From positions 38,553 through 102,552 of the IMG/VR virus record IMGVR_UViG_2778261689_000001: a DNA stretch of 64,000 nt. One strand, written 5' to 3'. Positions 410 to 46,897 of the stretch are shown here, one piece after another (the first letter of the stretch is position 1; each line of letters opens with the position of its first letter). Source of the stretch: a virus (taxonomy: Duplodnaviria > Heunggongvirae > Uroviricota > Caudoviricetes). The translations under genes and the position numbers were made by a program. The notes under the pieces were generated by a model. It was not told where the DNA came from and searched no databases. It worked only from the letters and a program-made list of their open reading frames with translations.

Positions 410-1773
410 CAATAATCCTCTTGCCAGTCAGCACCAGCATAGTTATCAAACCGTGAGTATTGGCCGTTAAAAGCCAATCTCACCGTGCCAATTGGGCCAT
501 TTCGTTGCTTACCGATAATCACCTCGGCAATGCCCTTCATTTCGCTATCCGGGTGATAAACTTCGTCGCGATACAGAAACATGATCAGGTCTGCGTCCTG
601 CTCAATTGCTCCTGATTCACGTAAATCTGAATTTACCGGTCGTTTGTCCGCACGCTGTTCAAGTGAACGATTAAGTTGTGACAATGCCACCACCGGTACT
701 TGTAATTCCTTCGCCAAAGCCTTCAGTGAGCGAGAAATCTCGGCAATTTCCAGCGTTCGGTTATCTTGCAGCTCGGGGACGCGCATAAGTTGCAGGTAGT
801 CGATCATAATCATGCTCAAACCACCATTTTCTTTATAAACACGACGAGCGCGGGAACGAAGCTCTGTAGGTGTCAGGGCGCTTGAGTCATCAATAAAAAT
901 ATTTTGCTTGTCCAACAGAATCCCCATTGCGCCAGAAACCCGCGCCCAATCCTCGTCGTTAAGTTGCCCTGTTCGAATACGAGTCTGATCAACGCGTGCA
1001 AGAGAAGCCAGTGAGCGCATCATCAGCTGGTGGCTCGGCATCTCAAGGCTAAAAACCAATACGGGCTTATAGTTACGGACTGCGGCATTTTCGACGAGAT
1101 TCATCGCAAACGTGGTCTTCCCCATAGATGGGCGGGCGGCGACAATGATGAGATCGGACGGCTGAAGCCCTGCCGTCTTCTTATTGAGATCGGTAAATCC
1201 CGTATCAAGCCCCGTTACACCATCATGTGGTCGCTGAAACAACTCTTCTATGCGAGATACCGTTGCATCGAGAATGCTGGCGATATCTTTTGGACCACTA
1301 CCGCTCTTTTGTCGTTTTTCAGCTATTTCAAAAACGCGGCGCTCGGCCATATCCAGCAATTCATTGCTGCCCCTGCCATCCTGCGCATATCCAGCTTCGG
1401 CTATTTCATTTGCGACGGAAATCATTTCACGAACGACCGCGCGTTCACGAACGATATCCGCATAAGCACAAATATTTGCCGCGCTGGGCGTGTTCTTTGA
1501 CATCTCCGCAAGGTACGCAAAACCACCGGCGCGTTCTAATTTACCGTTCTGTTCAAGTGCTTCAGCAAGTGTTATCAAATCAATCGGTTTGCCATGACTT
1601 AATAACCTCTCCATCTCACTGAAAATTTCACGATGAGCACTGGTATAAAAATCATCAGCAACTATACGATCTGCAACTTCATCCCAGCGGCAGTTATCAA
1701 GCATTAAGCCACCAAGTACAGCTTGTTCTGCACTAAGGGAATTTGGCATGGATTCAAGAGGGGATGCAGACAT
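409..1773 (-). CDS. ban: DnaB-family replicative helicase (P1 Ban-like)
   Basis: N-terminus AEQAVLGGLMLDNCRWDEVADRIVADDFYT matches the DnaB N-terminal signature; Walker A ARPSMGKTTFA; length about 454 aa; GGAG RBS before the ATG at 1773. Confidence 0.9.
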   Translation of the reverse strand: MSASPLESMPNSLSAEQAVLGGLMLDNCRWDEVADRIVADDFYTSAHREIFSEMERLLSHGKPIDLITLAEALEQNGKLERAGGFAYLAEMSKNTPSAANICAYADIVRERAVVREMISVANEIAEAGYAQDGRGSNELLDMAERRVFEIAEKRQKSGSGPKDIASILDATVSRIEELFQRPHDGVTGLDTGFTDLNKKTAGLQPSDLIIVAARPSMGKTTFAMNLVENAAVRNYKPVLVFSLEMPSHQLMMRSLASLARVDQTRIRTGQLNDEDWARVSGAMGILLDKQNIFIDDSSALTPTELRSRARRVYKENGGLSMIMIDYLQLMRVPELQDNRTLEIAEISRSLKALAKELQVPVVALSQLNRSLEQRADKRPVNSDLRESGAIEQDADLIMFLYRDEVYHPDSEMKGIAEVIIGKQRNGPIGTVRLAFNGQYSRFDNYAGADWQEDY

Positions 1774-2059
1774 TAGCACTCCACCCAGGCGTGCTGAATG
1801 TCAGATATAATCGGCATACTCAAATCACTCCTAACGATATGAGTCATCACCAGAAAATCAGGATTAATGCGCCGGACTCTTCCCGGCTGTCACACCGAAT
1901 CGCCAGGATGGTGAATCCCTTTACCCGAGAAACAACAAACGGTGGCTTGCACATTCCGGCTACCTGGTTCGTTGCCTGAGCTAGGGGCAAGGTTCCCCCC
2001 TTTTAACGTCACCAGACCGCTAACGACGCATGTGCCAGACGCCGTGTTACAACCAAATA

Positions 2060-2135
2060 TGGTGGCCCCTACCGGACTTGAACCGGTGACCGTGCGATTA
2101 TGAGTCGCCAGCTCTAACCACTGAGCTAAAGGGCC
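2060..2135 (-). tRNA. tRNA with CAU anticodon (Met or Ile2/lysidine type), CCA encoded
   Basis: Minus-strand 76-nt cloverleaf: acceptor GGCCCTT/AGGGGCC, D-arm GCTC-AGTGGTTA-GAGC, anticodon loop CTCATAA, T-arm ACCGG-TTCAAGT-CCGGT, ACCA 3' end. One G-A mismatch at the base of the anticodon stem. Confidence 0.8.
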
Positions 2136-2138
2136 GGA

Positions 2139-2246
2139 TTACTGTTTCCTGAGTGCTTCTATGACGCCAGCAATACCGCCTACAACTATGCCAGCAATGA
2201 CAACGAGAACAATTGGATGCTTGTCAGCAAAATCCCAGAAGCCCAT
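2139..2246 (-). CDS. 35-aa hydrophobic peptide (MGFWDFADKHPIVLVVIAGIVVGGIAGVIEALRKQ)
   Basis: Hand-translated; start overlaps the upstream ORF stop (TGATG); single predicted TM helix; below the ORF-track size cut-off. Confidence 0.35.
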   Translation of the reverse strand: MGFWDFADKHPIVLVVIAGIVVGGIAGVIEALRKQ

Positions 2247-2410
2247 CACTGATCCTTAGAAGCTGTTTTTAATATCGGCCATACCAATGTTACAGCTACT
2301 GCCACCAACGCCCCGTCCGATAAAACTGACAGGATTGTGCTGGTGAAATCCACCAGCACGGACAGCAAGAGAAAACCAATGGCGATTGCGATACGTGCCT
2401 TGCTTGCCAT
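2246..2410 (-). CDS. 54-aa small membrane protein (MASKARIAIAIGFLLLSVLVDFTSTILSVLSDGALVAVAVTLVWPILKTASKDQ)
   Basis: Hand-translated; ATG overlaps the stop of the TerB-like gene (TAATG); hydrophobic; translationally coupled three-gene arrangement. Confidence 0.4.
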   Translation of the reverse strand: MASKARIAIAIGFLLLSVLVDFTSTILSVLSDGALVAVAVTLVWPILKTASKDQ

Positions 2411-2844
2411 TACAGATAATCTTCCACACGAAGACCTAAACGACGGCCTACTTCTTCCAGTACTTTGTGTTCTGCTGGCTCGATTTCACCGTCCGCTTCT
2501 GCAATTGTCAGCATGTTAACGAATACTTCTTCCGCTTCTTTTGGATCGTTTTTGATATCTTCAATTTCGCGAAGGATATTCATGCGACCAACACGGAAGC
2601 CAGCTTCCAGTTGCTCGGTAAAGCGGGTAATTGTTGCAGTAATTTCGTTACCAAAATGACTAAGACGCGGATTAGAGCGGACAAGCTGATCAAGTTTCGC
2701 TGTTTCTTCTTTTTCGATTTCACCATCAGCGGCAGACACCAACAAACAGCCACCGATGATGGCCTCCATCAGATCGCGATTCTCAACTTTTTTCAGCTCT
2801 ACTTTTGCAGAAGCGACTTTCTTGCCGAACAATTTACCGAACAT
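2410..2844 (-). CDS. TerB-domain protein (tellurite-resistance TerB family; resembles P1 TciA)
   Basis: 144 aa; paired acidic ADGEIE motifs (VSAADGEIEKEETAKL and IAEADGEIEPAEHKVLEEVGRRLGL) typical of TerB; first gene of a coupled operon ending at the CAU tRNA and ban. Confidence 0.7.
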   Translation of the reverse strand: MFGKLFGKKVASAKVELKKVENRDLMEAIIGGCLLVSAADGEIEKEETAKLDQLVRSNPRLSHFGNEITATITRFTEQLEAGFRVGRMNILREIEDIKNDPKEAEEVFVNMLTIAEADGEIEPAEHKVLEEVGRRLGLRVEDYL

Positions 2845-2868
2845 TGGTTATCCCTCAATAAAAGTGAC

Positions 2869-2885
2869 ATATTTATTAGATTGCG
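2869..2885. promoter_or_regulatory. Degenerate C1-operator-like site upstream of the TerB-like operon
   Basis: atatttattagattgcg: 12 of 17 matches to the aaatttattagagcaat motif found elsewhere in the window; lies 25 bp upstream of the TerB-like start. Confidence 0.3.
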
Positions 2886-2999
2886 GTGCCGAGTGCCTCC
2901 CGGTGACGTTAACCAGTTAACAATTAACGTCGGAATGTTTAACCATTAAGGAGGATTGTTTTAACTGTTCCGCGTGCGCTTAGCCGCATTCACCGCAAC

Positions 3000-3770
3000 G
3001 GAAAGAGCATTCCTGGTGGACCTGTAGATTGGGATATGAACCCGTTACAGGAGAATGCTCTTACCTGTTACGTGCTCCGTTTCGTGGAGCTAACGGCGGG
3101 TGATCGGGCCGCACCAGACTGGACTTATTTCAGCGTTATGCTCATGCCAGAGAATCAAACTGTGATGGTCGGTGCTGAACTCCGACACAGGGTTGTAGCA
3201 AGCCCCGCAAAGCGCGCACTACTGTAGTTGCGGCACATCAGCCTGTGCATTCACCACAATGTTGAGAACACTGGTTGTCACGCTGCAACGCAACATTTAT
3301 TCGTAGATTGGGATATGACCCCGTTACGCCAGTGTTCTCAACGTTGTAGTGCCGGTTACGGTTCCGGCCAGGCCTCTTCCTCAACGGGGTGTTCTCCATA
3401 CGGACTACCGTTTATTGGTCGTTCCTGCGGTTTATGTTGTGAAGCCAGATGCTTATCTTCTGGTTGCTTCAAAGAGCTGCACTTCATCACAACGGTAAGA
3501 GCACTCGATGCATTTAAGCCAAGCCCCATAAGGGAGAATGCCCTTACCTGTTGTGTTGTGATGACCGGTGCTGATCTCCGGCTTGCGGTTATTTCAGACT
3601 CTCACGGGCGTTTAATTGCCCCGCCGAACAGCTCTTTTCCGCAATAGCTGCAATGTCTTTCGCGCATCAGCCTGCGCATTCATCACAACGGTAAGGGTAC
3701 TTCGTAGGGATTCGAACCCTCTGCCAAGCTCGGCGATCTCCGACGTCGCAAAATACCCTTACCTGTTGTG
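3000..3770. repeat. Array of diverged tRNA-like hairpin repeat units
   Basis: At least four units (about 3003-3062, 3249-3345, 3481-3560, 3683-3770): long outer inverted repeat (e.g. CACAACGGTAAGGG...CCCTTACCTGTTGTG) enclosing a T-arm-like hairpin (minus strand GGGTTCATATCCC, GGGGTCATATCCC, AGGGTTCGAATCCCT). A fifth partial copy of the outer motif lies at 4196-4215. Confidence 0.5.
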
Positions 3771-3771
3771 C

Positions 3772-3847
3772 TGGTGCCGATTAACGGACTCGAACCGCTG
3801 ACATCCTGCTTACAAGGCAGGCGCTCTACCAACTGAGCTAAACCGGC
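3772..3847 (-). tRNA. tRNA-Thr (anticodon UGU), CCA encoded
   Basis: Minus-strand 76 nt: acceptor GCCGGTT/AATCGGC, D-arm GCTC-AGTTGGTA-GAGC, anticodon stem CCTGC/GCAGG with loop CTTGTAA, T-arm AGCGG-TTCGAGT-CCGTT, ACCA. Confidence 0.9.
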
Positions 3848-3849
3848 AT

Positions 3850-3925
3850 TGGCGATGGTGGATGGATTTGAACCATCGACCCGTTGATTAACAGTCAACC
3901 GCTCTAACCGCTGAGCTACACCATC
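3850..3925 (-). tRNA. tRNA-Asn (anticodon GUU), CCA encoded
   Basis: Minus-strand 76 nt: acceptor GATGGTG/CACCATC, anticodon stem GTTGA/TCAAC with loop CTGTTAA, T-arm GATGG-TTCAAAT-CCATC, GCCA 3' end. Confidence 0.9.
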
Positions 3926-4590
3926 ACTTGCCGGGTACGTCTCCGGCGAGGGCTTCCACCTCCGTATGCTTTTCGGCGCACCGCGCCCTGGCTGCAATTC
4001 GGTAACAGGGGATGCATAACCCTGGCTTCCAGCGTGATTAGCGCTTTCAGCATGACGGGATATACCCGTAAATTCGTGGAACTGTACCCAAAGTGCTGTT
4101 AAGCACCGCTGTTACGCTGAAAAGAAAACGCAACAGGAAAGGACGCTGACCAACAGATGGCCCCTTCTCGTTCATCTGGTTAATCACACCAGCGCCCTTA
4201 CCTGTTGTGTCTCCCCGTTCCCTAATACACAGACGGGGACACTCTGCGGTCGATTTTTTGACGGGGGACGACTCATACCCCGTGGCGTCTGGCTTCTTAG
4301 GCCGCTACCATCATCAGATCATCGTTTGCATTTACTTTAATGGTCAGTTTCTAAACCGCCGCAAAGTCGCTAACCATGACGAAAACCCTGAAAAAAAACG
4401 CCCACCCGAAGATGGGCAAACTGGAAGCTCGTAACGCACTTCGGAGTTGCCACTTAGGCGCATGGTCAACCTGGCAACTCGGTGGTTTGTCTGGGAGGAC
4501 TAGGCCCAGCCATGCTTACCGCCGCGCCTGTCGCGGCTAACAGCTAAATCGCTCTATAAATCACGATTCATTGAGGCTATATTACACTAA

Positions 4591-4607
4591 TAAATTTATT
4601 AGAGCAA
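4591..4607. promoter_or_regulatory. C1-repressor operator (exact 17-mer aaatttattagagcaat)
   Basis: Matches the P1 C1 operator consensus ATTGCTCTAATAAATTT (reverse orientation); overlaps the dmt stop and lies upstream of the minus-strand tRNA cluster; flanked by a partial inverted copy (actaataaattt). Confidence 0.6.
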
Positions 4608-6863
4608 TATACCTAAAACGTCATGAGCTACACCTCGAGTGTCCCCCTTACAAGACACAGAACGTCTGGCAAAAAGAGGTTCCACTCTGAAGCCACTGTC
4701 ATGATAAAGCTCTCTGATATTTGGCGCGCCACTGTTAGTAATGAGAACCTTTGCACCTCGACGATGAGCATCCGTCAACAGAGACACCAGGCGTTTTTGC
4801 TCTTCAAACTTAAAGTCATGACCGGAATAGTTCGTGAATCCCTCTGTATTTGGAAGCGGTTCATACGGCGGATCGCAAAAGATGACATCTCCTTCTCCGG
4901 CAGCTTCAATCACCGCTGCAAAATCACCGCATACAAACTCAGACCGCCCTTCCGCACCGAGGAAGGCTTCCATCTCCTGTAATGGGAAATACGGAGTTTT
5001 ATACTTCCCATAACCGACATTGAACTCACCGGCCTGGTTGTAACGCGTCAATCCGTTAAAACAATGTCGGTTCAGGAACAAAAACGCCGCTGCGCGATGT
5101 AAATCATCATAGACTTGTTTGTTAAACGCATTCCGTACTGCCAGGTATCCTTCCTGTGTGTTGTAGTCCTGGAAGAAACGATGTGCCAGAGTGATAAGTG
5201 AATGCGCCTCGCGTTGCAGAGTCTTGTAAAAGTTAATCAGGTCAGCATTCACATCATTTAGCAGATTTTCCTGGTATCCGGCATTCATGAAGACAGCTCC
5301 GCCACCAACGAAAGGTTCAATCAGGCGCTTCCCTTCTGGCAAATAGCGAAAGATTTGTTCCAGAACACCAAATTTTCCACCAGCCCATTTGAATATGGAC
5401 CGTTCGAATTCTGCCGCTGGTTTAACTTTTCGCTCTTTTGTTTTACTTCCTTCTTTCTGCCGACATACGGCCTTAGTAATCCGATCGCCAATCCAGCGCA
5501 TTACTGGTATTGCCATACTATTGCCGATCGCTTTGTAACGCGGTCCGTCAGCTGCAAGCATCGCGGCCTCTTCTTCGCTTAAATCTGGATAGTGATTGCG
5601 AAGATATGCCAGTTCATCTGAATTAACTTTTTTACGCTTTTCCGTCGGGATCAACGTATGCCCATCAGGAAAACCTTGCAGCCTTTCACATTCGACAGGG
5701 GTAAGACGGCGGACAGCTACTTCTGCGTTTCTTACTTCATAGCAAACAGCTGTTGGATTTTTAGCCATTAGAGATGGTGAAGTATTCTTAGTTGCAGCAT
5801 GTTGTGTACCGCTCATACGCTCAGGAAAAGCCAATGTAACAAGATGCTCATGGCTTTCTTGCTCACGTGCCCGCAATGTACCATGCCCTTCTGACCAAAA
5901 ACCTGCTCCTGTGCTGCTAAAAACGGCAAGGTCAGTGGCATCTTTAAAATCTCTTGCCTTTACTGTCGATGCGGTTTCATCGTCAATATATTCCCCAAAT
6001 GCTGCCATCCTGAAAGCGTTTACGGCTTTCGTCGATTTCATACCGGGTGGAATGTCAGCGTGTAGGCATGGATTTAGGCTTTCGCCACTGATTGCAGCGC
6101 CATTTGCAATAATGGCGGAAGCGATTTCCTTCTTTTTTCGGCTCGGCGCAATATCCCGGCGCACGCCTTCGAACTCAAAAAGTACCGTTGCGGGATCGAG
6201 GTCTGTTCGAGCACTTGCGACAACAAACACGCGTCGGCGTCGTTGTGCCACTCCGAAGTATTGGGCATCAAGGATTCTCCAGGCCACCTTTCGCTGCGGT
6301 CCATAAATACAACCACACTGCGGCCACTTTGGAGCATGGCAACCGGTTTTGCCATCCCACCGCCAGAACGCGTTACTTTTTCCTGATTCAGGTCGATCAC
6401 CTGGTTCAAATGGCGCATCTTCTCCAGCCAATCCGGCAAGGAAACATCCGAAGGCGTTATCTGCCGATGACAGGACTCCTGGGACATTTTCCCAGACGAT
6501 AACTGTCGGTTTGAGGAAGGACTCAGACCGTTTGTCGTCAATTGCATTTGCAAGCTCCACATACTTCAAAGTTAGCGCGCCGCGTTCATCATCAAGCCCA
6601 CCACGTAAGCCCGCGATACTGAATGCCTGACAAGGTGTTCCCCCGACGAGCACATCAGGGGATTCGATTTCCCCAGCCAGGACTTTTTTGGCAAGTTTTG
6701 TCATGTCGCCAAGGTTGGCGACATGGGGCCAGCGGTGCGCAAGAACGGCAGATGGAAAAGGCTCGATTTCAGCAAACCACGCCGGACGCATACCCAACGG
6801 TTCCCAGGCAATACTCGCGGCTTCAATTCCACTGCAAACAGATCCATAGCACAGCTCTTTCAC
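4599..6863 (-). CDS. dmt: Fused DNA methyltransferase: N-terminal C5-cytosine MTase plus C-terminal Dam-like N6-adenine MTase (P1 Dmt-like)
   Basis: 754 aa; N-terminal [23 protein letters not shown] (PCQ catalytic Cys) and ENVPG motifs; C-terminal CDPPYEP (DPPY) motif. Confidence 0.85.
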
Positions 6864-43909: not shown

Positions 43910-46897
43910 ATGAGCTTAAGCGATCAGGTGGTAATGGCCACCAGCATAGAAACGCTGATCGAGCTGCTAAAAAACCTGCCCGATTTCGGGCGGGTTTCGT
44001 ATGTGGTGACAGCGAAGGGAGACGAGGTAAAAACAGCGTTTGATATCGTCGATGCCTCAGCTCTTTTGGTATCCAATACTCTGGACGGGAAAATTAATCC
44101 GGACTATCCCCAGGAACTTCAGCCGCGCGACCGGACCCGCGCATCCAGCCTTCTTCAGGTTAACCAGATATCCAAGGATTTGCGGCCTGCTCAGCTTACC
44201 GATTCCGGTTTATCCAGCCATGGAGCGCCGATAATTGGTGAGGACAATGCCGTTGAGTCAGGTAATGGACGGACCATGGGGATCATCAAAGCCTATCAGG
44301 ACGGCAATGCGGATCGGTATCGTGAGTACCTGATTGATCATGCGACCGAATTCGGCATACGACCTGAAAAGGTTGAATCAATGGCGGCTCCGGTACTGGT
44401 GCGCCGCCGGTTAACTAAGGTTGACCGCGTTCAGTTTGCCAAGGACTCAAATATTTCTGATCTTCAGGAAATGGCAGCCAGTGAAAAGGCTTTTGTTGAT
44501 GCCGACAACATAACTTCGGCGATGATGGCGCTGTTTAACCCGTCAGAAAGCGGAGATCTGCTTAGCCGCAGTAATGACGCGTTTATCCGCGGATTCATGA
44601 CGCAAGTTGGTGCCACACAGGCTGCTGGCCTTGTAACGGAAGATGGGCGACCAACACGGCAACTTGTAGACCGTATACAAAACGCGATCTTTGCCAAGGC
44701 ATATAAGGATGCGCGCCTGGTAAGGATGGTTGCAGAAGAACCTGATCCAGATATGCGTAATGTTCTGACGGCGCTTAATGCGGCAGCCAATGATTTTGTC
44801 CAGATGCAGGCTTTATCAGGTGAAGCGCACAAGCAGGCTGTGACAACTATTGTTGATGGTATTGAGACAGCGGATAGTCTCGATAAAAAGGCGCTGGCGG
44901 CATTGAAAGATGCGGTAGACCTGGTAAGGCAATCGAAGGAGTCAGGCCAACATATTACCGATGTTATTGCTCAGGGGGATATGTTCAGCGAAACAGCCCC
45001 GGAAGTGAAAGCTCTCGCGTTATTCATCGTCGCGAATAACCGTAGCGCGAAGCGTATGGCCACCGCCTTTAAATTGATGGCTCAACGTATCAATGATGAG
45101 TTACAGCACCAGTGCCAGGCGCTGGGGGATATGTTTGGCGGTGGTGATGTGTCGTTACAGGATATCCTTCGCCAGGTGTCTCAGGAACTGGAAAACGAAG
45201 GCATGCAAGGGATATCCGGCGGTCTTTTCGAGTCCGTTTCCGGCGGTAGTTACAACGGTGTTGCTCCATATACCAGTTTGCTATTACATCGGGCATCCGG
45301 CATCAAAGACATTATTCATCTGATCAGGCTGCTTTCCCGTACAGATCCCCAGGATGAACAGCTTGTTCAAGTGCTTGCGCATTTTGTTCGAATGCCTGTT
45401 GCCGACGTGAAAAAATGGTGCCGATTATTCGGTATCAGCAATTCGTTACTTCGCGGCTTGTTAAATCACGCATCCTCCCTTGGGCGCGATGGCTTTGACG
45501 AGATAGCGCAGGCGATAAAAAACGGAGATATGCCACCAGCTATTGACTGGTTTTCCATTCGCCCAACCAGGGTGAAAGCATTCCTTAGCGCGGCGCATTC
45601 GGCATCACCATTGGCAGAAATGGTTCAGAGGTTGTCGCTCATATTCACAGACCATACCGCGTTGGGTGATCTGACTCTGGACGAGATGAAAGAAGCCTCC
45701 ATTCAGTGGGCCGATCAACAAAATGAGGTTAACTCAGACTTCTTGCCAGCATTCAGGAAGGCCGTTAGTAAAGCGGATGATGCCCGTGGAATTCTGAAGG
45801 CATTTAAGGCATTGCAAAGTCGGGTTAATAAACATGTCGGTGATATCGATGGGGTAACGGCGGAAGGCAGGGATATCCTTAAAGAGCACGGTATAACGCC
45901 AGAGTTTATTGATGAGATCAGGACGGATATGCAGCGTGAGGTCGTATCGTCCCTGCAAATTGTAGCCAGAGCATTGGCGGATGCTAATCCGAAGAGTGCG
46001 GCCATTGTTAACCGGGTTATTGGTGATATTGAAGCATCGGAGGGCATGGGGGCGCTGAAACTCTTCCTTTCGCGAGCGTTTAATCCTAACGGCAATATTC
46101 TCCCTGGCATTATTGGTGAGGCTAAAAGGTATGTCAGTGAAGAAGAACTTGAGCAGCTTGACCAACTACTTAAGCGATTCTCATATAACCCGCAGACACG
46201 CTGGCAAATGAATCAGCGAAGTATGGGTTCGGTCCACGAGAAAGTGTTATCTGCCATGAACAGTGCGATCGCAAACTCATCCGTATCTGAAGAAAAAGCT
46301 CTTGAGTGGGCCGACTCTTTTATCACGGAAGAAGTGGAAGAAGCCCGCGCTGGACAGAATGGTGGGATAGACCTGCGCAAGGAACTTGCTGATATTTATC
46401 GCCTGACCGGCGGTAAAATTTCGACCTTATCAAAGGTGGTTCACCACCAGGGAAGGGCATATGCAAATCTTAATGGTGTTGTTGCTGTCAATTTGAACGA
46501 TGAAAATGCAAGTGCACTGTGGCACGAGCTGGGTCATCATCTTGAGTACAGTAACCCTGGTTTGTTAGAGAAAGCCCGGTCATTCCTGAAGGCCAATGTT
46601 GAAGGGGATAAGCCATCTTTCGTTAATATCGGTGGGCGTGGCAAGCCTGAATGGTGCTTCAGATCTCGATTGAGTAATATTTATATGGCGAAGGTATACC
46701 CGCCAGCCTCAGTGAGTAACTCCGGGAAAATTCGGCAGAAAGCACCGACTATTTCAAAAACATCAGCAACGGAAGTATTCTCTATGGCTCTTCAGTTGTA
46801 TCATGACAAAGAGGCCGCTGCCGCATCACTGATGAATGGTGACGGATTGCTGGAACTGTTATTAGGTGTGGCAAAGGAGCTAAATAATGCAGATTAA
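43910..46897 (+). CDS. Large Dar-operon protein (P1 DdrB position) with an HExxH zinc-metallopeptidase-like motif
   Basis: 995 aa; WHELGHHLEYS near the C-terminus. Confidence 0.55.
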   Translation: MSLSDQVVMATSIETLIELLKNLPDFGRVSYVVTAKGDEVKTAFDIVDASALLVSNTLDGKINPDYPQELQPRDRTRASSLLQVNQISKDLRPAQLTDSGLSSHGAPIIGEDNAVESGNGRTMGIIKAYQDGNADRYREYLIDHATEFGIRPEKVESMAAPVLVRRRLTKVDRVQFAKDSNISDLQEMAASEKAFVDADNITSAMMALFNPSESGDLLSRSNDAFIRGFMTQVGATQAAGLVTEDGRPTRQLVDRIQNAIFAKAYKDARLVRMVAEEPDPDMRNVLTALNAAANDFVQMQALSGEAHKQAVTTIVDGIETADSLDKKALAALKDAVDLVRQSKESGQHITDVIAQGDMFSETAPEVKALALFIVANNRSAKRMATAFKLMAQRINDELQHQCQALGDMFGGGDVSLQDILRQVSQELENEGMQGISGGLFESVSGGSYNGVAPYTSLLLHRASGIKDIIHLIRLLSRTDPQDEQLVQVLAHFVRMPVADVKKWCRLFGISNSLLRGLLNHASSLGRDGFDEIAQAIKNGDMPPAIDWFSIRPTRVKAFLSAAHSASPLAEMVQRLSLIFTDHTALGDLTLDEMKEASIQWADQQNEVNSDFLPAFRKAVSKADDARGILKAFKALQSRVNKHVGDIDGVTAEGRDILKEHGITPEFIDEIRTDMQREVVSSLQIVARALADANPKSAAIVNRVIGDIEASEGMGALKLFLSRAFNPNGNILPGIIGEAKRYVSEEELEQLDQLLKRFSYNPQTRWQMNQRSMGSVHEKVLSAMNSAIANSSVSEEKALEWADSFITEEVEEARAGQNGGIDLRKELADIYRLTGGKISTLSKVVHHQGRAYANLNGVVAVNLNDENASALWHELGHHLEYSNPGLLEKARSFLKANVEGDKPSFVNIGGRGKPEWCFRSRLSNIYMAKVYPPASVSNSGKIRQKAPTISKTSATEVFSMALQLYHDKEAAAASLMNGDGLLELLLGVAKELNNAD

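What the first reader, a model, noticed from the sequence alone, without database searches (positions are those of the whole stretch)
3000..4260. Array of tRNA-like hairpin repeats interleaved with bona fide tRNA genes
Seen in sequence: besides three canonical tRNAs (CAU at 2060-2135, Thr-UGU at 3772-3847, Asn-GUU at 3850-3925) there are at least four diverged copies of a structured unit. Each has a 10-17 bp outer stem (CACAAC(A)GGTAAGGG paired with CCCTTACC(T)GTTGTG, or a diverged equivalent) enclosing a T-arm-like hairpin (GGG-TTCATAT-CCC, GGGG-TCATAT-CCC, AGGG-TTCGAAT-CCCT on the minus strand) but no obvious D-arm or anticodon arm. One copy sits immediately 3' of tRNA-Thr, and a fifth outer motif is at 4196-4215. 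Long ORFs predicted here are on both strands and overlap the repeats, so the region is more likely RNA than protein. Inference: these may be tRNA pseudogenes, unusual tRNA-like RNAs, or processing signals for the polycistronic tRNA transcript.
Basis: seen in the sequence. Interest (0 to 1): 0.5.

Follow-up and report, generated by a model that had tools for sequence, protein, structure and literature searches.

The report
Phage leader-RNA hairpins separating small RNAs
The "tRNA-like repeats" are real: five long RNA hairpins in the untranslated leader of a P1-type phage operon that alternate with tRNA genes and clover-leaf small-RNA modules, belong to an unannotated family found in phage lambda and hundreds of other phages, and most likely mark where the long transcript is cut into separate small RNAs.

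Summary
The window is a P1-like phage. On the minus strand, in the untranslated leader of the C1-controlled ban operon, five long hairpins (units A-E, 15-25 bp stems) sit beside tRNA-Asn and tRNA-Thr.

They are not tRNA pseudogenes. Only unit D carries a canonical T arm, and no tRNA model matches any unit.

They belong to a widespread, unannotated phage family. A sequence homologue lies a few bases after the tR' terminator of phage lambda. Others lie in late or PL leaders of lambdoid phages and in tRNA/small-RNA islands of virulent phages. Across 116 contexts the stems covary strongly and fold better on the transcribed strand.

The hairpins alternate with interchangeable cassettes:
- tRNA genes;
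- a four-way-junction "module M" with the same architecture as the STnc100 model (related to PasD), whose 22-nt core is identical in bacteria of several phyla;
- a tmRNA-like tag template (ANDDLMMVAA*).

The P1 ORFs upl and plp that overlap the array show no protein-level constraint.

Best explanation: the hairpins are double-strand-specific (RNase III-type) processing and insulating stems that punctuate a polycistronic non-coding transcript. Cleavage itself is inferred, not shown. Rivals are boxA/Nus-type elongation control, recombination linkers and hairpin-derived small RNAs.

The parts
4129..4209 (-). Hairpin unit E. The 5' arm is CACAACAGGUAAGGGCGCUGG and the 3' arm is CAGCGUCCUUUCCUGUUGCG. 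The insert is itself a hairpin with no T arm.
   Evidence: Fold -46.4 kcal/mol, z -5.4, against -34.2 on the plus strand. Coordinates. Aligned with its paralogues in A1.
3684..3770 (-). Hairpin unit D. It starts 2 nt after the CCA of tRNA-Thr. Its insert holds a canonical T-arm-like hairpin, AGAGGGUUCGAAUCCCUAC (3722-3704).
   Evidence: Fold -41.6 kcal/mol, z -5.6. Coordinates. Relaxed ARAGORN gives only a poor tRNA-Tyr call. No homology to real tRNA-Tyr or tRNA-Ser beyond the T loop.
3488..3555 (-). Hairpin unit C. Together with module M1 it forms a cassette that is absent from P1 itself.
   Evidence: Fold -37.8 kcal/mol, z -5.4. P1 lacks window ~3500-3671, and the junction is a 22-nt repeat.
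3255..3348 (-). Hairpin unit B. Its arms have diverged (UACAACGUUGAGAACACUGG / CCAGUGUUCUCAACAUUGUG) but stay complementary.
   Evidence: Inverted repeat I1, 23 nt and 91% complementary. Fold -49.2 kcal/mol, z -6.2. Compensatory changes relative to units A, C, D and E.
2994..3072 (-). Hairpin unit A, the last unit before the STnc100-like module and tciA.
   Evidence: Fold -36.3 kcal/mol, z -4.3. Coordinates.
3772..3925 (-). tRNA-Asn(GUU) at 3925-3850 and tRNA-Thr(UGU) at 3847-3772.
   Evidence: ARAGORN. Rfam tRNA, 74.5 and 72.9 bits.
3555..3689 (-). Module M1, a four-way junction. It has a closing helix GUUGUGAUG/CAUCACAAC, hairpin H1 GCGCA-GGCUGA-UGCGC (3677-3662), a central arm, and hairpin H2 GCCGG-AGAUCAGCA-CCGG (3582-3564) that abuts the closing helix. 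It is 98% identical to a segment in PL leaders of lambdoid phages.
   Evidence: Fold of 3775-3550. Lambdoid matches. Family-wide covariation of the closing helix.
3159..3260 (-). Module M3, a second copy of the same module. H1 is GCACA-GGCUGA-UGUGC (3248-3233), H2 is UCGG-AGUUCAGCA-CCGA (3185-3169), and the closing helix is AUUGUGGUG/CAUCACAGU.
   Evidence: Direct repeats D3 and D7. Coordinates. The H1 stem is compensated relative to M1, read directly from the sequence.
3436..3493 (-). Module M2, a degenerate mini-module. It keeps the closing strands GUUGUGAUGAAG/CUUCACAAC and an H2-like hairpin CCAGA-AGAUAAGCA-UCUGG, but has no H1.
   Evidence: Direct repeat D5. Coordinates.
2882..2997 (-). 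STnc100-like module (M4) between unit A and the tciA start. Its closing helix is UGCGGUG/CACCGCA, with GAAU plus a hairpin at the 5' side and CCGGGAGGCACUCGG abutting the 3' strand.
   Evidence: Rfam RF02076, 42.0 bits, E 2.8e-7, below the gathering score of 47.
4297..4370 (-). tmRNA-like tag template. The conserved leader GCGACUUUGCGG..UUUAGAAACUGACC..AAAU is followed by GCA AAC GAU GAU CUG AUG AUG GUA GCG GCC UAA, which encodes ANDDLMMVAA*.
   Evidence: Rfam tmRNA_permuted, 26 bits, below the gathering score of 47. Eight tag variants occur in about 30 loci, each of exactly 10 codons, with synonymous changes. ARAGORN reports it only at an 80% threshold.
4381..4482 (-). The 'dicF-like region' of the P1 annotation, ending in the only strong intrinsic terminator of the leader (4417-4391).
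   Evidence: Coordinates transferred from AF234172. Terminator scan.
3074..3090 (-). Small hairpin GCUCC-ACGAAAC-GGAGC immediately 5' of unit A. Analogous small hairpins precede unit B (3368-3351) and unit E (4240-4211).
   Evidence: Coordinates. In other phages the same position holds a tRNA 3' end, a T-run terminator or a GRAAGA-loop hairpin.

Best explanation
The repeats are copies of a conserved leader-RNA hairpin, transcribed on the minus strand as part of the roughly 1.7-kb untranslated leader of the C1-controlled ban operon.

Order of elements along the minus strand: P1ban promoter, DicF-like RNA with its terminator, tmRNA-like tag module, unit E, tRNA-Asn, tRNA-Thr, unit D, M1, unit C, M2, unit B, M3, unit A, STnc100-like module, tciABC, tRNA(CAU), ban.

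The hairpins act as punctuation between interchangeable small-RNA cassettes: tRNAs, four-way-junction M / STnc100-type small RNAs, and the tag module. Their 15-25 bp irregular duplexes are most likely cut by the host double-strand-specific RNase III. Cutting would free the neighbouring RNAs for final trimming and leave stable hairpin ends. The dense structure would also shield the untranslated transcript.

The nearly identical arms also serve as homologous-recombination junctions through which cassettes are swapped between phages. The T-arm-like inserts are variable cargo or fossils, not working tRNAs.

Shown here: RNA-level structure, strand, family membership, cassette grammar and lack of coding constraint. 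Inferred: RNase III cleavage and its consequences.
For: 1. The structure is selected.
- In a 12-sequence alignment of the five units with lambda, HK620, Bas80, mEp460 and D6 homologues, 93.4% of cells are paired against 84.7% in shuffles (0/500). Nine of 18 pairs change on both sides. Slid controls give 42-55%.
- In 116 distinct contexts, 96 have at least 14 of the last 22 nt paired in one hairpin. There are 72 different 3' arms and 4-6 pair types at most of the 22 stem positions.

2. It works as RNA on the transcribed strand.
- The sense strand folds better than the antisense strand in 88 of 96 cases, by 5.7 kcal/mol on average, and in all five window units.
- All 30 instances with a tRNA within 1 kb have it on the same strand.

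3. The setting is a polycistronic non-coding transcript.
- P1 annotation places the C1-controlled P1ban/P2ban promoters and their C1 operator upstream of this leader, with ban downstream on the same strand.
- There is only one intrinsic terminator, and the simple consensus scan found no minus-strand promoter inside 1700-4700.

4. The hairpins always sit between structured RNAs.
- A tRNA CCA end, a terminator or a small hairpin lies immediately 5' of the hairpin. Module M or the tag module lies immediately 3'.

5. There is a lambda homologue.
- It lies at 44787-44862, a few nt after tR' in the late leader.
- A 1988 paper reports RNase III processing sites in lambda late RNA. The citation was seen; the site coordinates were not checked.

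6. STnc100/PasD-type modules are experimentally detected Hfq-dependent small RNAs of 80-240 nt. The 5' end of the 84-nt PasA small RNA comes from cleavage of a longer transcript.

7. Cassettes are exchanged at the arms.
- P1 lacks the M1 + unit C cassette, and the junction is a 22-nt repeat.
- L012 has M1 after unit B. L002 has unit C directly after tRNA-Thr.

8. The overlapping ORFs are not constrained.
Against: - No cleavage data exist for these hairpins, and I could not confirm that the lambda RNase III sites map to the homologous hairpin.
- In a whole-leader lambda fold the base of the hairpin is used by the neighbouring module instead. Another 16-bp hairpin (45085-45125) is an equally good RNase III candidate.
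- The arms are conserved in sequence, not only in pairing. They keep a bulged A, a U-U mismatch and a U-G wobble (47 of 98 contexts at that position, 10 of 11 in A1). This suggests a sequence-specific partner other than RNase III.
- The 3' arm of the main family carries a boxA-like GCUCUUU, which fits a Nus-factor role.
- How RNA polymerase passes the strong terminator at 4417-4391 is unexplained.
Confidence: 0.5

Rival explanations
1. Transcription-elongation control. The hairpin plus its 3' flank would be a nut/rrn-like site: a boxA-like GCUCUUU in the 3' arm, the GU-rich GUUGUGGUG, and the small hairpin H1. It would load host Nus factors, or bind RNA polymerase directly as put RNA does. That would keep polymerase resistant to Rho and terminators across a long untranslated leader.
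For: - The main-family 3' arm UGCUCUUUCC matches the rrn boxA UGCUCUUUAAC at 7 of 8 core positions. On the opposite strand, the complement of the 5' arm reads GCUCUUAC, the same as lambda nutR boxA (sequence read; boxA consensus from own knowledge and PMC3177189, listed).
- The layout resembles P22 nutL.
- The elements sit in PL, pR' and ban leaders, where antitermination matters.
- A 1.7-kb untranslated leader is an obvious Rho target.
- The conserved mismatch and wobble in the stem suggest a specific binding partner.
Against: - BoxA must be single-stranded to bind NusB-NusE. Here it is locked in a 15-25 bp stem.
- Many family members have arms with no boxA-like sequence but keep the stem.
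- In lambda and several other phages the unit lies downstream of tR', not upstream of the terminator it would need to overcome.
- Neither the hairpin units nor module M occur in HK022, the put paradigm.
- The annotated putL-like RNA of HK639 aligns only weakly with the separate pre-ban / mEp460 PL-leader segment.
- No N-like gene was recognised in the ORF list of window 1500-5200. The rest of the window was not searched.
Confidence: 0.17
2. Recombination linkers or selfish palindromic DNA. The conserved inverted arms would persist because they promote exchange or duplication of cassettes between phages, like lambdoid boundary sequences or a MITE. No RNA-level function of their own would be needed.
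For: - Near-identical arms occur in very different phages. These include lambdoid, P1-like, T1-like, N4-like and Ackermannviridae phages.
- The copy number and order of units and modules differ among P1 relatives, with repeat junctions.
- The inserts fall into a few shared types that recur in unrelated phages.
Against: - The strand asymmetry is strong. G-U pairs favour the sense strand in 88 of 96 cases.
- Orientation relative to tRNAs is invariant, 30 of 30.
- Stems are kept by compensatory changes even when the arm sequence is completely different, so homology for recombination is lost while pairing is kept.
- No target-site duplications or insertions into genes were seen.
- This role can coexist with the best explanation.
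Confidence: 0.12
3. Hairpin-derived small RNAs. Each unit would be a precursor whose variable insert, once released by cleavage of the stem, acts as a base-pairing or decoy RNA. The T-arm-bearing inserts might act as tRNA-enzyme decoys.
For: - The inserts are 40-90 nt and fall into recurrent, conserved types rather than random sequence.
- Several inserts carry perfect T arms next to the 3' arm. Examples are unit D, L010, L026, L038 and L052.
- The neighbouring leader regions of prophages are known sources of Hfq-bound small RNAs.
Against: - No expression data exist for the inserts.
- Insert types vary freely at the same position in close relatives, which suggests they are dispensable.
- The conserved sequence features lie in the arms and flanks, not in the inserts.
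Confidence: 0.1
4. Degenerate tRNA genes (pseudogenes) left over from a once larger tRNA array.
For: - Relatives carry extra real tRNAs in this array. D6 has tRNA-Ser(UGA), followed directly by a unit. Ro157c2YLVW has tRNA-Tyr.
- Unit D has a canonical T arm.
- ARAGORN at an 80% threshold calls it tRNA-Tyr.
Against: - There is no hit at normal or 90% thresholds, nor with the Rfam tRNA model at E<=10.
- The relaxed cloverleaf borrows tRNA-Thr sequence and has poor D and acceptor stems.
- Similarity to real tRNA-Tyr and tRNA-Ser is limited to 11-14 nt of the universal T loop.
- Most family members have inserts with no tRNA features. The conserved part is the long stem, which no tRNA has.
Confidence: 0.06
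5. The region encodes the proteins Upl and Plp on the plus strand, as annotated in P1, and the repeats are incidental.
For: - ORFs of 63 and 139 aa exist and are annotated in AF234172 with predicted promoters.
- Upl matches two PHROG families built from the same P1-like annotations.
Against: - There are no Pfam hits, and Plp has no PHROG hit.
- In relatives Plp is truncated, interrupted by stop codons, or rearranged module by module, following the nucleotide cassettes.
- P1 Plp overlaps tRNA-Thr on the opposite strand.
- Variable sites in upl fall 4/11/11 on codon positions 1/2/3, not the third-position excess of a constrained protein.
- Plp starts with TTG and is Cys-rich and of low complexity.
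Confidence: 0.03

Closest known systems
RNase III processing hairpins of phage polycistronic transcripts (T7 early R1-R5 sites; lambda N-leader, sib and late-leader sites)
   Same: - Irregular 15-25 bp hairpins with conserved bulges or mismatches.
- They lie between functional units of a long phage transcript.
- One family member lies in the lambda late leader, where RNase III processing was reported (Daniels et al. 1988, cited).
   Different: - Cleavage was not demonstrated for any member.
- The arms are conserved in primary sequence across very different phages.
- They carry large variable inserts and separate non-coding cassettes rather than mRNAs.
- No Rfam family exists for them.
STnc100 (Rfam RF02076) / PasD prophage small RNAs
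   Same: - The module after unit A matches the STnc100 model at 42 bits.
- Modules M1 and M3 share its architecture: a closing helix GGUG/CACC, GAAU, a 5' hairpin, a variable body, and a 3' hairpin abutting the closing helix.
- STnc100 hits are frequent in prophage and phage regions flanking the Pas small-RNA genes.
   Different: - The match is below the gathering score.
- M1 and M3 are not detected by the STnc100 model at all and have different, near-invariant hairpins (GCGCA-GGCUGA-UGCGC and GCCGG-AGAUCAGCA-CCGGC).
- The hairpin units themselves are not part of the model region that matched.
tRNA genes and tRNA-like structures (C4/CI RNAs of P1/P4, YrlA, MHV68 tRNA-miRNA units)
   Same: - The units are co-transcribed with real tRNAs.
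- Unit D has a T arm.
- Module M is a four-way junction with an acceptor-like helix stacked on a T-arm-like hairpin. This recalls the RNase P-processed C4 RNA (own knowledge).
- The alternation of tRNA(-like) structure and hairpin recalls herpesvirus TMERs (own knowledge).
   Different: - No tRNA, C4 or YrlA model matches the units or M.
- There is no anticodon arm, CCA end or identity elements.
- The H1 and H2 loops are complementary over 5 nt, rather than forming the tRNA-type G18/G19-Psi55/C56 contacts.
tmRNA (SsrA), including permuted two-piece forms
   Same: - The adjacent module has a resume-codon context and a 10-codon tag, AN[DE][DEN]..A*, like ANDENYALAA.
- A small helix brackets the stop codon.
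- It gives weak hits to tmRNA_permuted.
   Different: - No tRNA-like domain with G3:U70 and CCA was found.
- It is below all curated thresholds.
- The halves proposed by relaxed ARAGORN are absent from D6 (whose similarity to the window ends at 4420), Bas80 and HK620.
- It concerns the neighbouring module, not the hairpin units.
nut / rrn boxA-boxB-boxC antitermination sites
   Same: - A boxA-like GCUCUUU, a GU-rich spacer and a small hairpin occur in the same order as P22 or lambda nut.
- The location is in early and late leaders.
   Different: - BoxA is sequestered in a long stem.
- No N-like gene was recognised in the ORF list of window 1500-5200.
- Many members lack boxA.
- The position is often downstream of the terminator.

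Membership tests
tRNA (RF00005) | Cloverleaf with D, anticodon and T arms that is detected by tRNA covariance or heuristic models. | tested here: not met
   ARAGORN at default, -ps and -ps90 settings, and Rfam tRNA at E<=10, find only the three real tRNAs. At -ps80, unit D gives a poor cloverleaf that overlaps tRNA-Thr.
tRNA (RF00005) | T arm with the GGUUCGAAUCC-type T loop. | tested here: inconclusive
   Present in unit D only (3722-3704). Units A and B have UUCAUAU or UCAUAU loops without A58. Units C and E have none.
RNase III processing hairpin | About two helical turns of mostly Watson-Crick duplex, often with an internal loop or bulge. | tested here: met
   Stems of 15-25 bp with a conserved bulged A, a U-U mismatch and a U-G wobble.
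RNase III processing hairpin | Location between functional units of a polycistronic transcript. | tested here: met
   The units are flanked by tRNAs, M/STnc100-like modules or the tag module, here and in about 100 other contexts.
RNase III processing hairpin | rnc-dependent cleavage in vivo or in vitro. | not testable with these tools
   The only lead is that RNase III sites were reported in lambda late RNA (citation seen). The lambda homologue is at 44787-44862, but the site coordinates were not verified, and another candidate hairpin exists.
STnc100 (RF02076) | Score at or above the Rfam gathering threshold (47 bits). | tested here: not met
   Window 2882-2997(-) scores 42.0 bits, E 2.8e-7, over model positions 31-147 of 206. 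M1 and M3 give no hit.
STnc100 (RF02076) | Architecture: closing helix, GAAU, 5' hairpin, and a 3' hairpin abutting the closing helix. | tested here: met
   Alignment to the model. The same layout is seen in M1 (fold) and in 100 of 114 contexts.
tmRNA | Tag reading frame with a resume codon and a C-terminal hydrophobic ..AA/..VA end. | tested here: met
   ANDDLMMVAA* at 4329-4297. There are eight variants, all of 10 codons, with synonymous changes.
tmRNA | tRNA-like domain with an acceptor stem (G3:U70), a T arm and a CCA end, and detection by ARAGORN or Rfam at curated thresholds. | tested here: not met
   No tmRNA at default thresholds. Rfam scores are 26-28 bits against a gathering score of 47. 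The halves proposed at an 80% threshold lack CCA and G3:U70 and are not conserved in relatives.
nut / boxA antitermination site | Single-stranded boxA (GCUCUUUA-type) available to NusB-NusE. | tested here: not met
   The boxA-like sequence lies inside the 3' arm and is paired in every predicted fold. Many members lack it.
nut / boxA antitermination site | Cognate N-type protein encoded by the phage. | not tested
   No N-like ORF was noticed in the ORF list of 1500-5200. The rest of the window was not searched for one.
MITE-like palindromic mobile element | Orientation-independent insertion with terminal inverted repeats and target-site duplication. | tested here: not met
   Inverted arms are present, but orientation is fixed relative to tRNAs (30/30) and to folding asymmetry (88/96). 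No duplications were seen at the junctions.

The most novel reading that the evidence does not exclude
The array may be the P1 copy of an undescribed non-coding RNA cassette system of tailed phages.

Its parts would be:
- punctuation hairpins;
- a tRNA-shaped four-way-junction RNA (module M);
- an orphan tmRNA-like tag template.

The 22-nt core of module M (GGUGAAUGCGCAGGCUGAUGCG) and its partner hairpin are invariant from Enterobacterales to Beta- and Alphaproteobacteria, and they also occur in MAGs of other phyla. That invariance would be explained if module M docks onto a universal host machine, such as RNase P, RNA polymerase or the ribosome/SmpB. The tag template could redirect trans-translation during infection.
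Probability: 0.2. Interest if true: 0.85.

Novelty: new variant of a known kind. Interest (0 to 1): 0.6.

Why it matters
1. Annotation. It corrects a 20-year-old annotation. The P1 genes upl and plp, copied into hundreds of P1-like phage-plasmid records, are most likely not genes. The tag-module-to-unit-E stretch queried (window 4120-4400) is present in 660 of 5426 complete E. coli genomes and is left unannotated.

2. A shared toolkit. The long untranslated leaders of phage operons (lambda pR', lambdoid PL, P1 ban) and the tRNA islands of virulent phages share modular non-coding parts. These are hairpins, clover-leaf small RNAs, tRNAs and a tmRNA-like tag template. The hairpin units and the GGCUGA-type module M have no Rfam family, and the tag template matches tmRNA models only weakly.

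3. Testability. The origin and processing of prophage small RNAs of the STnc100/PasD kind become directly testable.

4. An open question. A 22-nt RNA core conserved across bacterial phyla has no known partner.

Tried and rejected
- Rfam gave nothing for the units or for M1/M3. I used gathering and E<=10 modes on the window, and E<=1 on the HK620, Bas80 and lambda loci. Only sub-threshold STnc100, tmRNA_permuted and chance miRNA matches appeared. The Rfam DicF model gave no match for P1's 'dicF-like region'.
- Self-cleaving ribozymes (HDV-like, hammerhead, twister-sister, hatchet) were considered, because the 5' arm abuts tRNA 3' ends and CUGAUG occurs in H1. No model hit and no core match were found.
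- C/D-box-like UGAUGA/CUGA motifs were seen on both strands. I dropped them as a by-product of the palindromic layout.
- An integron attC-like site (CACAAC...GUUGUG) was dropped: I saw no integron-type integrase in the annotated neighbourhood (not searched for systematically), and the core sites do not fit.
- A small N-like peptide, MNAQADARKTLQLLRKRAVRRGN, overlaps H1. I rejected it because the paralogues change the frame content while compensating the hairpin (GCGCA/UGCGC, GCACA/UGUGC, UCGCA/UGCGA).
- HK022 put: neither the units nor module M occur in HK022. HK639's annotated putL-like RNA aligns only weakly with the window 2059-1850 / mEp460 PL-leader segment.
- The tmRNA tRNA-like domain proposed by ARAGORN at an 80% threshold was rejected. 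It lacks CCA and G3:U70 and is absent from relatives.
- Several literature leads failed. The P1 genome paper and King et al. 2011 are not held. P1vir transcriptome papers give no strand-resolved data for this region. The E. coli RNase III site survey does not cover these elements. The lambda records carry no RNase III features.


Full report
**Identity of the window and setting**

The window is a P1-family phage or phage-plasmid. It carries C4 antisense RNA, its a1b1 target and sok. Region 2850-4600 is 97-99.7% identical to P1, RCS47 and related Punavirus records.

In the annotated P1 record AF234172, the C1-controlled P1ban/P2ban promoters and their C1 operator lie at the end of dmt. They read the minus strand of the window. 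The annotated order is a 'dicF-like region', tRNA-Asn, tRNA-Thr, then tciA-tciB-tciC, tRNA-Ile(CAU) and ban. The stretch between tRNA-Thr and tciA is annotated on the opposite strand as upl and plp. The finding therefore lies in a long untranslated leader of the ban operon.

**Check of the observation**

- ARAGORN and Rfam confirm the three tRNAs at the stated coordinates, all on the minus strand.
- The repeats are real. The 5' arm motif matches four times with at most 3 mismatches, against 0.12 expected, and all matches are on the minus strand.
- Direct and inverted repeat families tie together units at 2994-3072 (A), 3255-3348 (B), 3488-3555 (C), 3684-3770 (D) and 4129-4209 (E).
- Each unit folds into a long hairpin with z-scores of -4.3 to -6.2. 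Each is 5-12 kcal/mol more stable on the minus strand than on the plus strand, because of G-U pairs.
- Unit D starts two bases after the CCA of tRNA-Thr.

**Not tRNAs**

No unit is called by ARAGORN at 100-90% thresholds or by the Rfam tRNA model at E<=10. At 80%, ARAGORN builds a poor 'tRNA-Tyr' from unit D plus the end of tRNA-Thr. Unit D resembles the real tRNA-Tyr of phage Ro157c2YLVW and the real tRNA-Ser of D6 only in the universal T loop. Only unit D has a canonical T arm.

**A widespread family**

The sequence right after units B and D, GUGGUGAAU-GCRCAGGCUGAUGYGC, was used as a pattern.
- It hit at least 120 viral contigs, giving 117 distinct contexts.
- It hit 209 GenBank phage records.
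- The consensus on the sense strand is GCACAACAGGUAAGAGCAUUG, a 40-90 nt variable insert, then CAGUGCUCUUUCCGUUGUG.
- Phage lambda has it at 44787-44862, a few bases after the tR' terminator of the 6S RNA.
- HK620 has two copies between pR'/qut and the holin gene.
- mEp460 and Stx2a_WGPS2 have them in the PL leader.
- The virulent phage Bas80 has one in a small transcription unit, preceded by a promoter-like TTGACA-17-TAGATT, that ends with tRNA-Met.
- The Ackermannviridae phage Magnus has one about 2.4 kb from its tRNA genes.
- The element is never annotated as a feature.

**Selection on structure and strand**

In a 12-sequence alignment of the five window units with lambda, HK620, Bas80, mEp460 and D6 homologues:
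- 93.4% of cells pair, against 84.7% in shuffles (0/500).
- Nine of 18 pairs change on both sides.
- Slid controls fall to 42-55%.

Across 116 contexts:
- 96 have at least 14 of the last 22 nt paired in one hairpin.
- There are 72 different 3' arms and 4-6 pair types at most of the 22 stem positions.
- The sense strand is the more stable one in 88 of 96.

All 30 instances with a tRNA within 1 kb have it on the same strand. This argues for an RNA-level function on the transcribed strand and against an orientation-free DNA element. A bulged A, a U-U mismatch and a U-G wobble are conserved in the main family.

**What lies between the hairpins**

In 76 of 114 contexts, the nine bases ending in GGUG just 3' of the hairpin are complementary to nine bases 75-205 nt (one at 274, one at 369) downstream. 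In nearly all of them those nine bases are directly preceded by a second conserved hairpin, GCCGG-AGAUCAGCA-CCGGC.

When that hairpin is located independently, 87% of closing-helix cells pair against 80% in shuffles, about 10 sd. There are many compensated variants: GAUGUGGUG/CACCACAUC, AUGAUGGUG/CACCAUCAU, and GUUGUGAUG/CAUCACAAC in the window against GUUGUGGUG/CACCACAAC in mEp460.

Folding 3775-3550 gives the unit D hairpin followed by a four-way junction. The junction has a closing helix, H1, a central arm and H2 stacked on the closing helix. The H1 and H2 loops are complementary (GCUGA/UCAGC).

This 'module M' occurs in the window at 3689-3555 and 3260-3159. It occurs in degenerate form at 3493-3436, and as an STnc100-like version at 2997-2882 (Rfam 42 bits, gathering score 47).

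STnc100 and its relative PasD are prophage small RNAs. PasD and the other Pas RNAs were detected as Hfq-dependent species of 80-240 nt, and the 5' end of the 84-nt PasA small RNA arises by cleavage of a longer transcript.

So the clover-leaf shapes in this region are the modules, not the hairpins. The overall grammar is hairpin, cassette, hairpin, cassette. A cassette is a tRNA, a module M or the tag module described below.

**Plasticity**

- P1 itself lacks window ~3500-3671 (M1 plus unit C), and the junction is a 22-nt repeat.
- Contig L012 has M1 after unit B.
- Ro157c2YLVW has unit C directly after tRNA-Thr.
- D6 has a real tRNA-Ser followed directly by a unit.
- M1 is 98% identical to the PL-leader copy in lambdoid phages.

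The conserved arms therefore also act as junctions for cassette exchange.

**Coding potential**

- upl and plp have no Pfam match, and plp has no PHROG match.
- In relatives plp is truncated, interrupted by stops or rearranged piece by piece, following the nucleotide modules.
- P1 plp overlaps tRNA-Thr.
- Variable sites in upl fall 4/11/11 on codon positions 1/2/3.

**Mechanism**

The best-supported reading is that the hairpins are RNase III-type processing and insulating stems. They would punctuate a polycistronic non-coding transcript.

What is shown:
- The duplex length and irregular geometry fit known phage RNase III sites.
- The position is always between structured RNAs that must be released.
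- A sequence homologue sits in the lambda late leader. RNase III processing of lambda late RNA was reported by Daniels et al. 1988 (citation seen).

What is not shown: I could not verify that the mapped lambda sites coincide with this hairpin. A whole-leader fold shows a competing pairing with the neighbouring module and a second candidate hairpin at 45085-45125. Cleavage is therefore inferred. I put 0.5 on this mechanism. I put about 0.9 on the weaker statement that these are selected RNA structures on the minus strand and are neither tRNA genes nor protein-coding.

The main rival is a Nus/boxA-type elongation element. The 3' arm of the main family reads UGCUCUUUCC, followed by a GU-rich stretch and a small hairpin. 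Three points count against it. The boxA-like sequence is paired. Many members lack it. The element often lies downstream of the terminator.

Only one intrinsic terminator lies in the leader, at 4417-4391. The simple scan found no minus-strand promoter in 1700-4700. How polymerase passes that terminator is unexplained.

**Side observations**

1. The tag module. Just upstream of unit E (4370-4297) lies a tmRNA-like tag template encoding ANDDLMMVAA*.
- The same module occurs in about 30 loci, including HK620, Bas80 and Magnus.
- It has a conserved leader and eight tag variants of exactly ten codons. Synonymous changes are present, and a small helix surrounds the stop codon.
- Rfam tmRNA_permuted gives only 20-28 bits.
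- No credible tRNA-like domain was found.

2. The 22-mer. The exact 22-mer GGTGAATGCGCAGGCTGATGCG occurs in 111 stretches of species-representative bacterial genomes.
- These span Enterobacterales, many Beta- and other Gammaproteobacteria and some Alphaproteobacteria.
- They also include MAGs labelled Geobacteraceae, Acidobacteriota, Coriobacteriia and Phycisphaerales.
- In most of them the H2 hairpin and a compensated closing helix are kept.
- The flanking ORFs in the loci inspected look phage-like, but they were read by eye only.
- No Rfam family covers this module.

3. The pre-ban leader. Window 2059-1850, between tRNA(CAU) and ban, is homologous to the start of the mEp460 PL leader.

**Novelty and verdict**

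The kind of element is known: phage processing hairpins and prophage leader small RNAs. What appears undescribed:
- this hairpin family;
- its alternation with tRNAs and clover-leaf modules;
- its presence in P1, where it is mis-annotated as two genes;
- the neighbouring tag module.

I rate it a new variant of a known kind, with interest 0.6.

Noticed in passing
window 4297-4370 (-); also L127 2250-2334 (HK620), L126 2270-2356 (Bas80), L128 (Magnus): An orphan tmRNA-like tag template. A conserved leader precedes GCA AAC GAU GAU ... UAA, which encodes ANDDLMMVAA*. Other phages carry ANDDVVLMAA*, ANEEMYLAVA* or ANDEQFLAVA*. The tag is always 10 codons and shows synonymous variation. No tRNA-like domain was found, and scores are below all curated tmRNA thresholds.
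   Followed up: partly
window 3662-3689 and 3233-3260 (-); loci L131-L241: The exact 22-mer GGTGAATGCGCAGGCTGATGCG (closing strand + AAU + hairpin H1 of module M) occurs in 111 stretches of bacterial genomes. These span Gamma-, Beta- and Alphaproteobacteria and MAGs of other phyla. Usually the partner hairpin GCCGG-AGAUCAGCA-CCGGC and a compensated closing helix are present too. No Rfam family covers it, and its partner is unknown.
   Followed up: partly
window 2882-2997 (-): A sub-threshold match to the Rfam small RNA STnc100 (42 bits, gathering score 47) lies directly upstream of the tciA start. It has the same architecture as modules M1 and M3.
   Followed up: partly
window 1850-2059 (-): The leader between tRNA(CAU) and ban is about 85% identical to the first ~115 nt of the PL leader of lambdoid phage mEp460. 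It includes a boxB-like hairpin GCCGG-GAAGAGU-CCGGC at 1887-1871. Similarity to the annotated putL-like antiterminator RNA of HK639 is weak.
   Followed up: partly
window 3036-3227 (+) and 3228-3647 (+): The ORFs corresponding to P1 upl and plp overlap the hairpins and modules on the opposite strand and show no protein-level constraint. They are probably mis-annotations that have propagated through P1-like records and PHROGs (phrog_14500, phrog_7444).
   Followed up: yes
window 4391-4417 (-): A strong intrinsic terminator (GCCCAUCUUCGGGUGGGC + U8) lies about 170 nt downstream of the ban promoters, at the end of the 'dicF-like region'. All downstream leader elements and ban need read-through of it. 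The Rfam DicF model does not match this region.
   Followed up: no
window 3500-3671 versus L001 (P1), L012, L002: The array differs among P1 relatives by whole cassettes. M1 + unit C is absent from P1, M1 follows unit B in L012, and unit C follows tRNA-Thr in L002. Junctions fall in the repeated arms.
   Followed up: yes
L243 22330-22925 (HK639 late leader): Between Q and the holin genes, HK639 carries two tRNA-like sequences and a full STnc100-type module (GUGGUGAAUCC...CACCGGGAGGCACCCGGCACCAUG). This shows the same cassette grammar in another lambdoid late leader.
   Followed up: no
alignment A1 columns 29/114; family-wide stem position 16: A U-G wobble is conserved at a fixed position near the top of the hairpin stem (10 of 11 sequences in A1; 47 of 98 contexts). 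A bulged A and a U-U mismatch are conserved lower down. Together they suggest a sequence-specific ligand.
   Followed up: no
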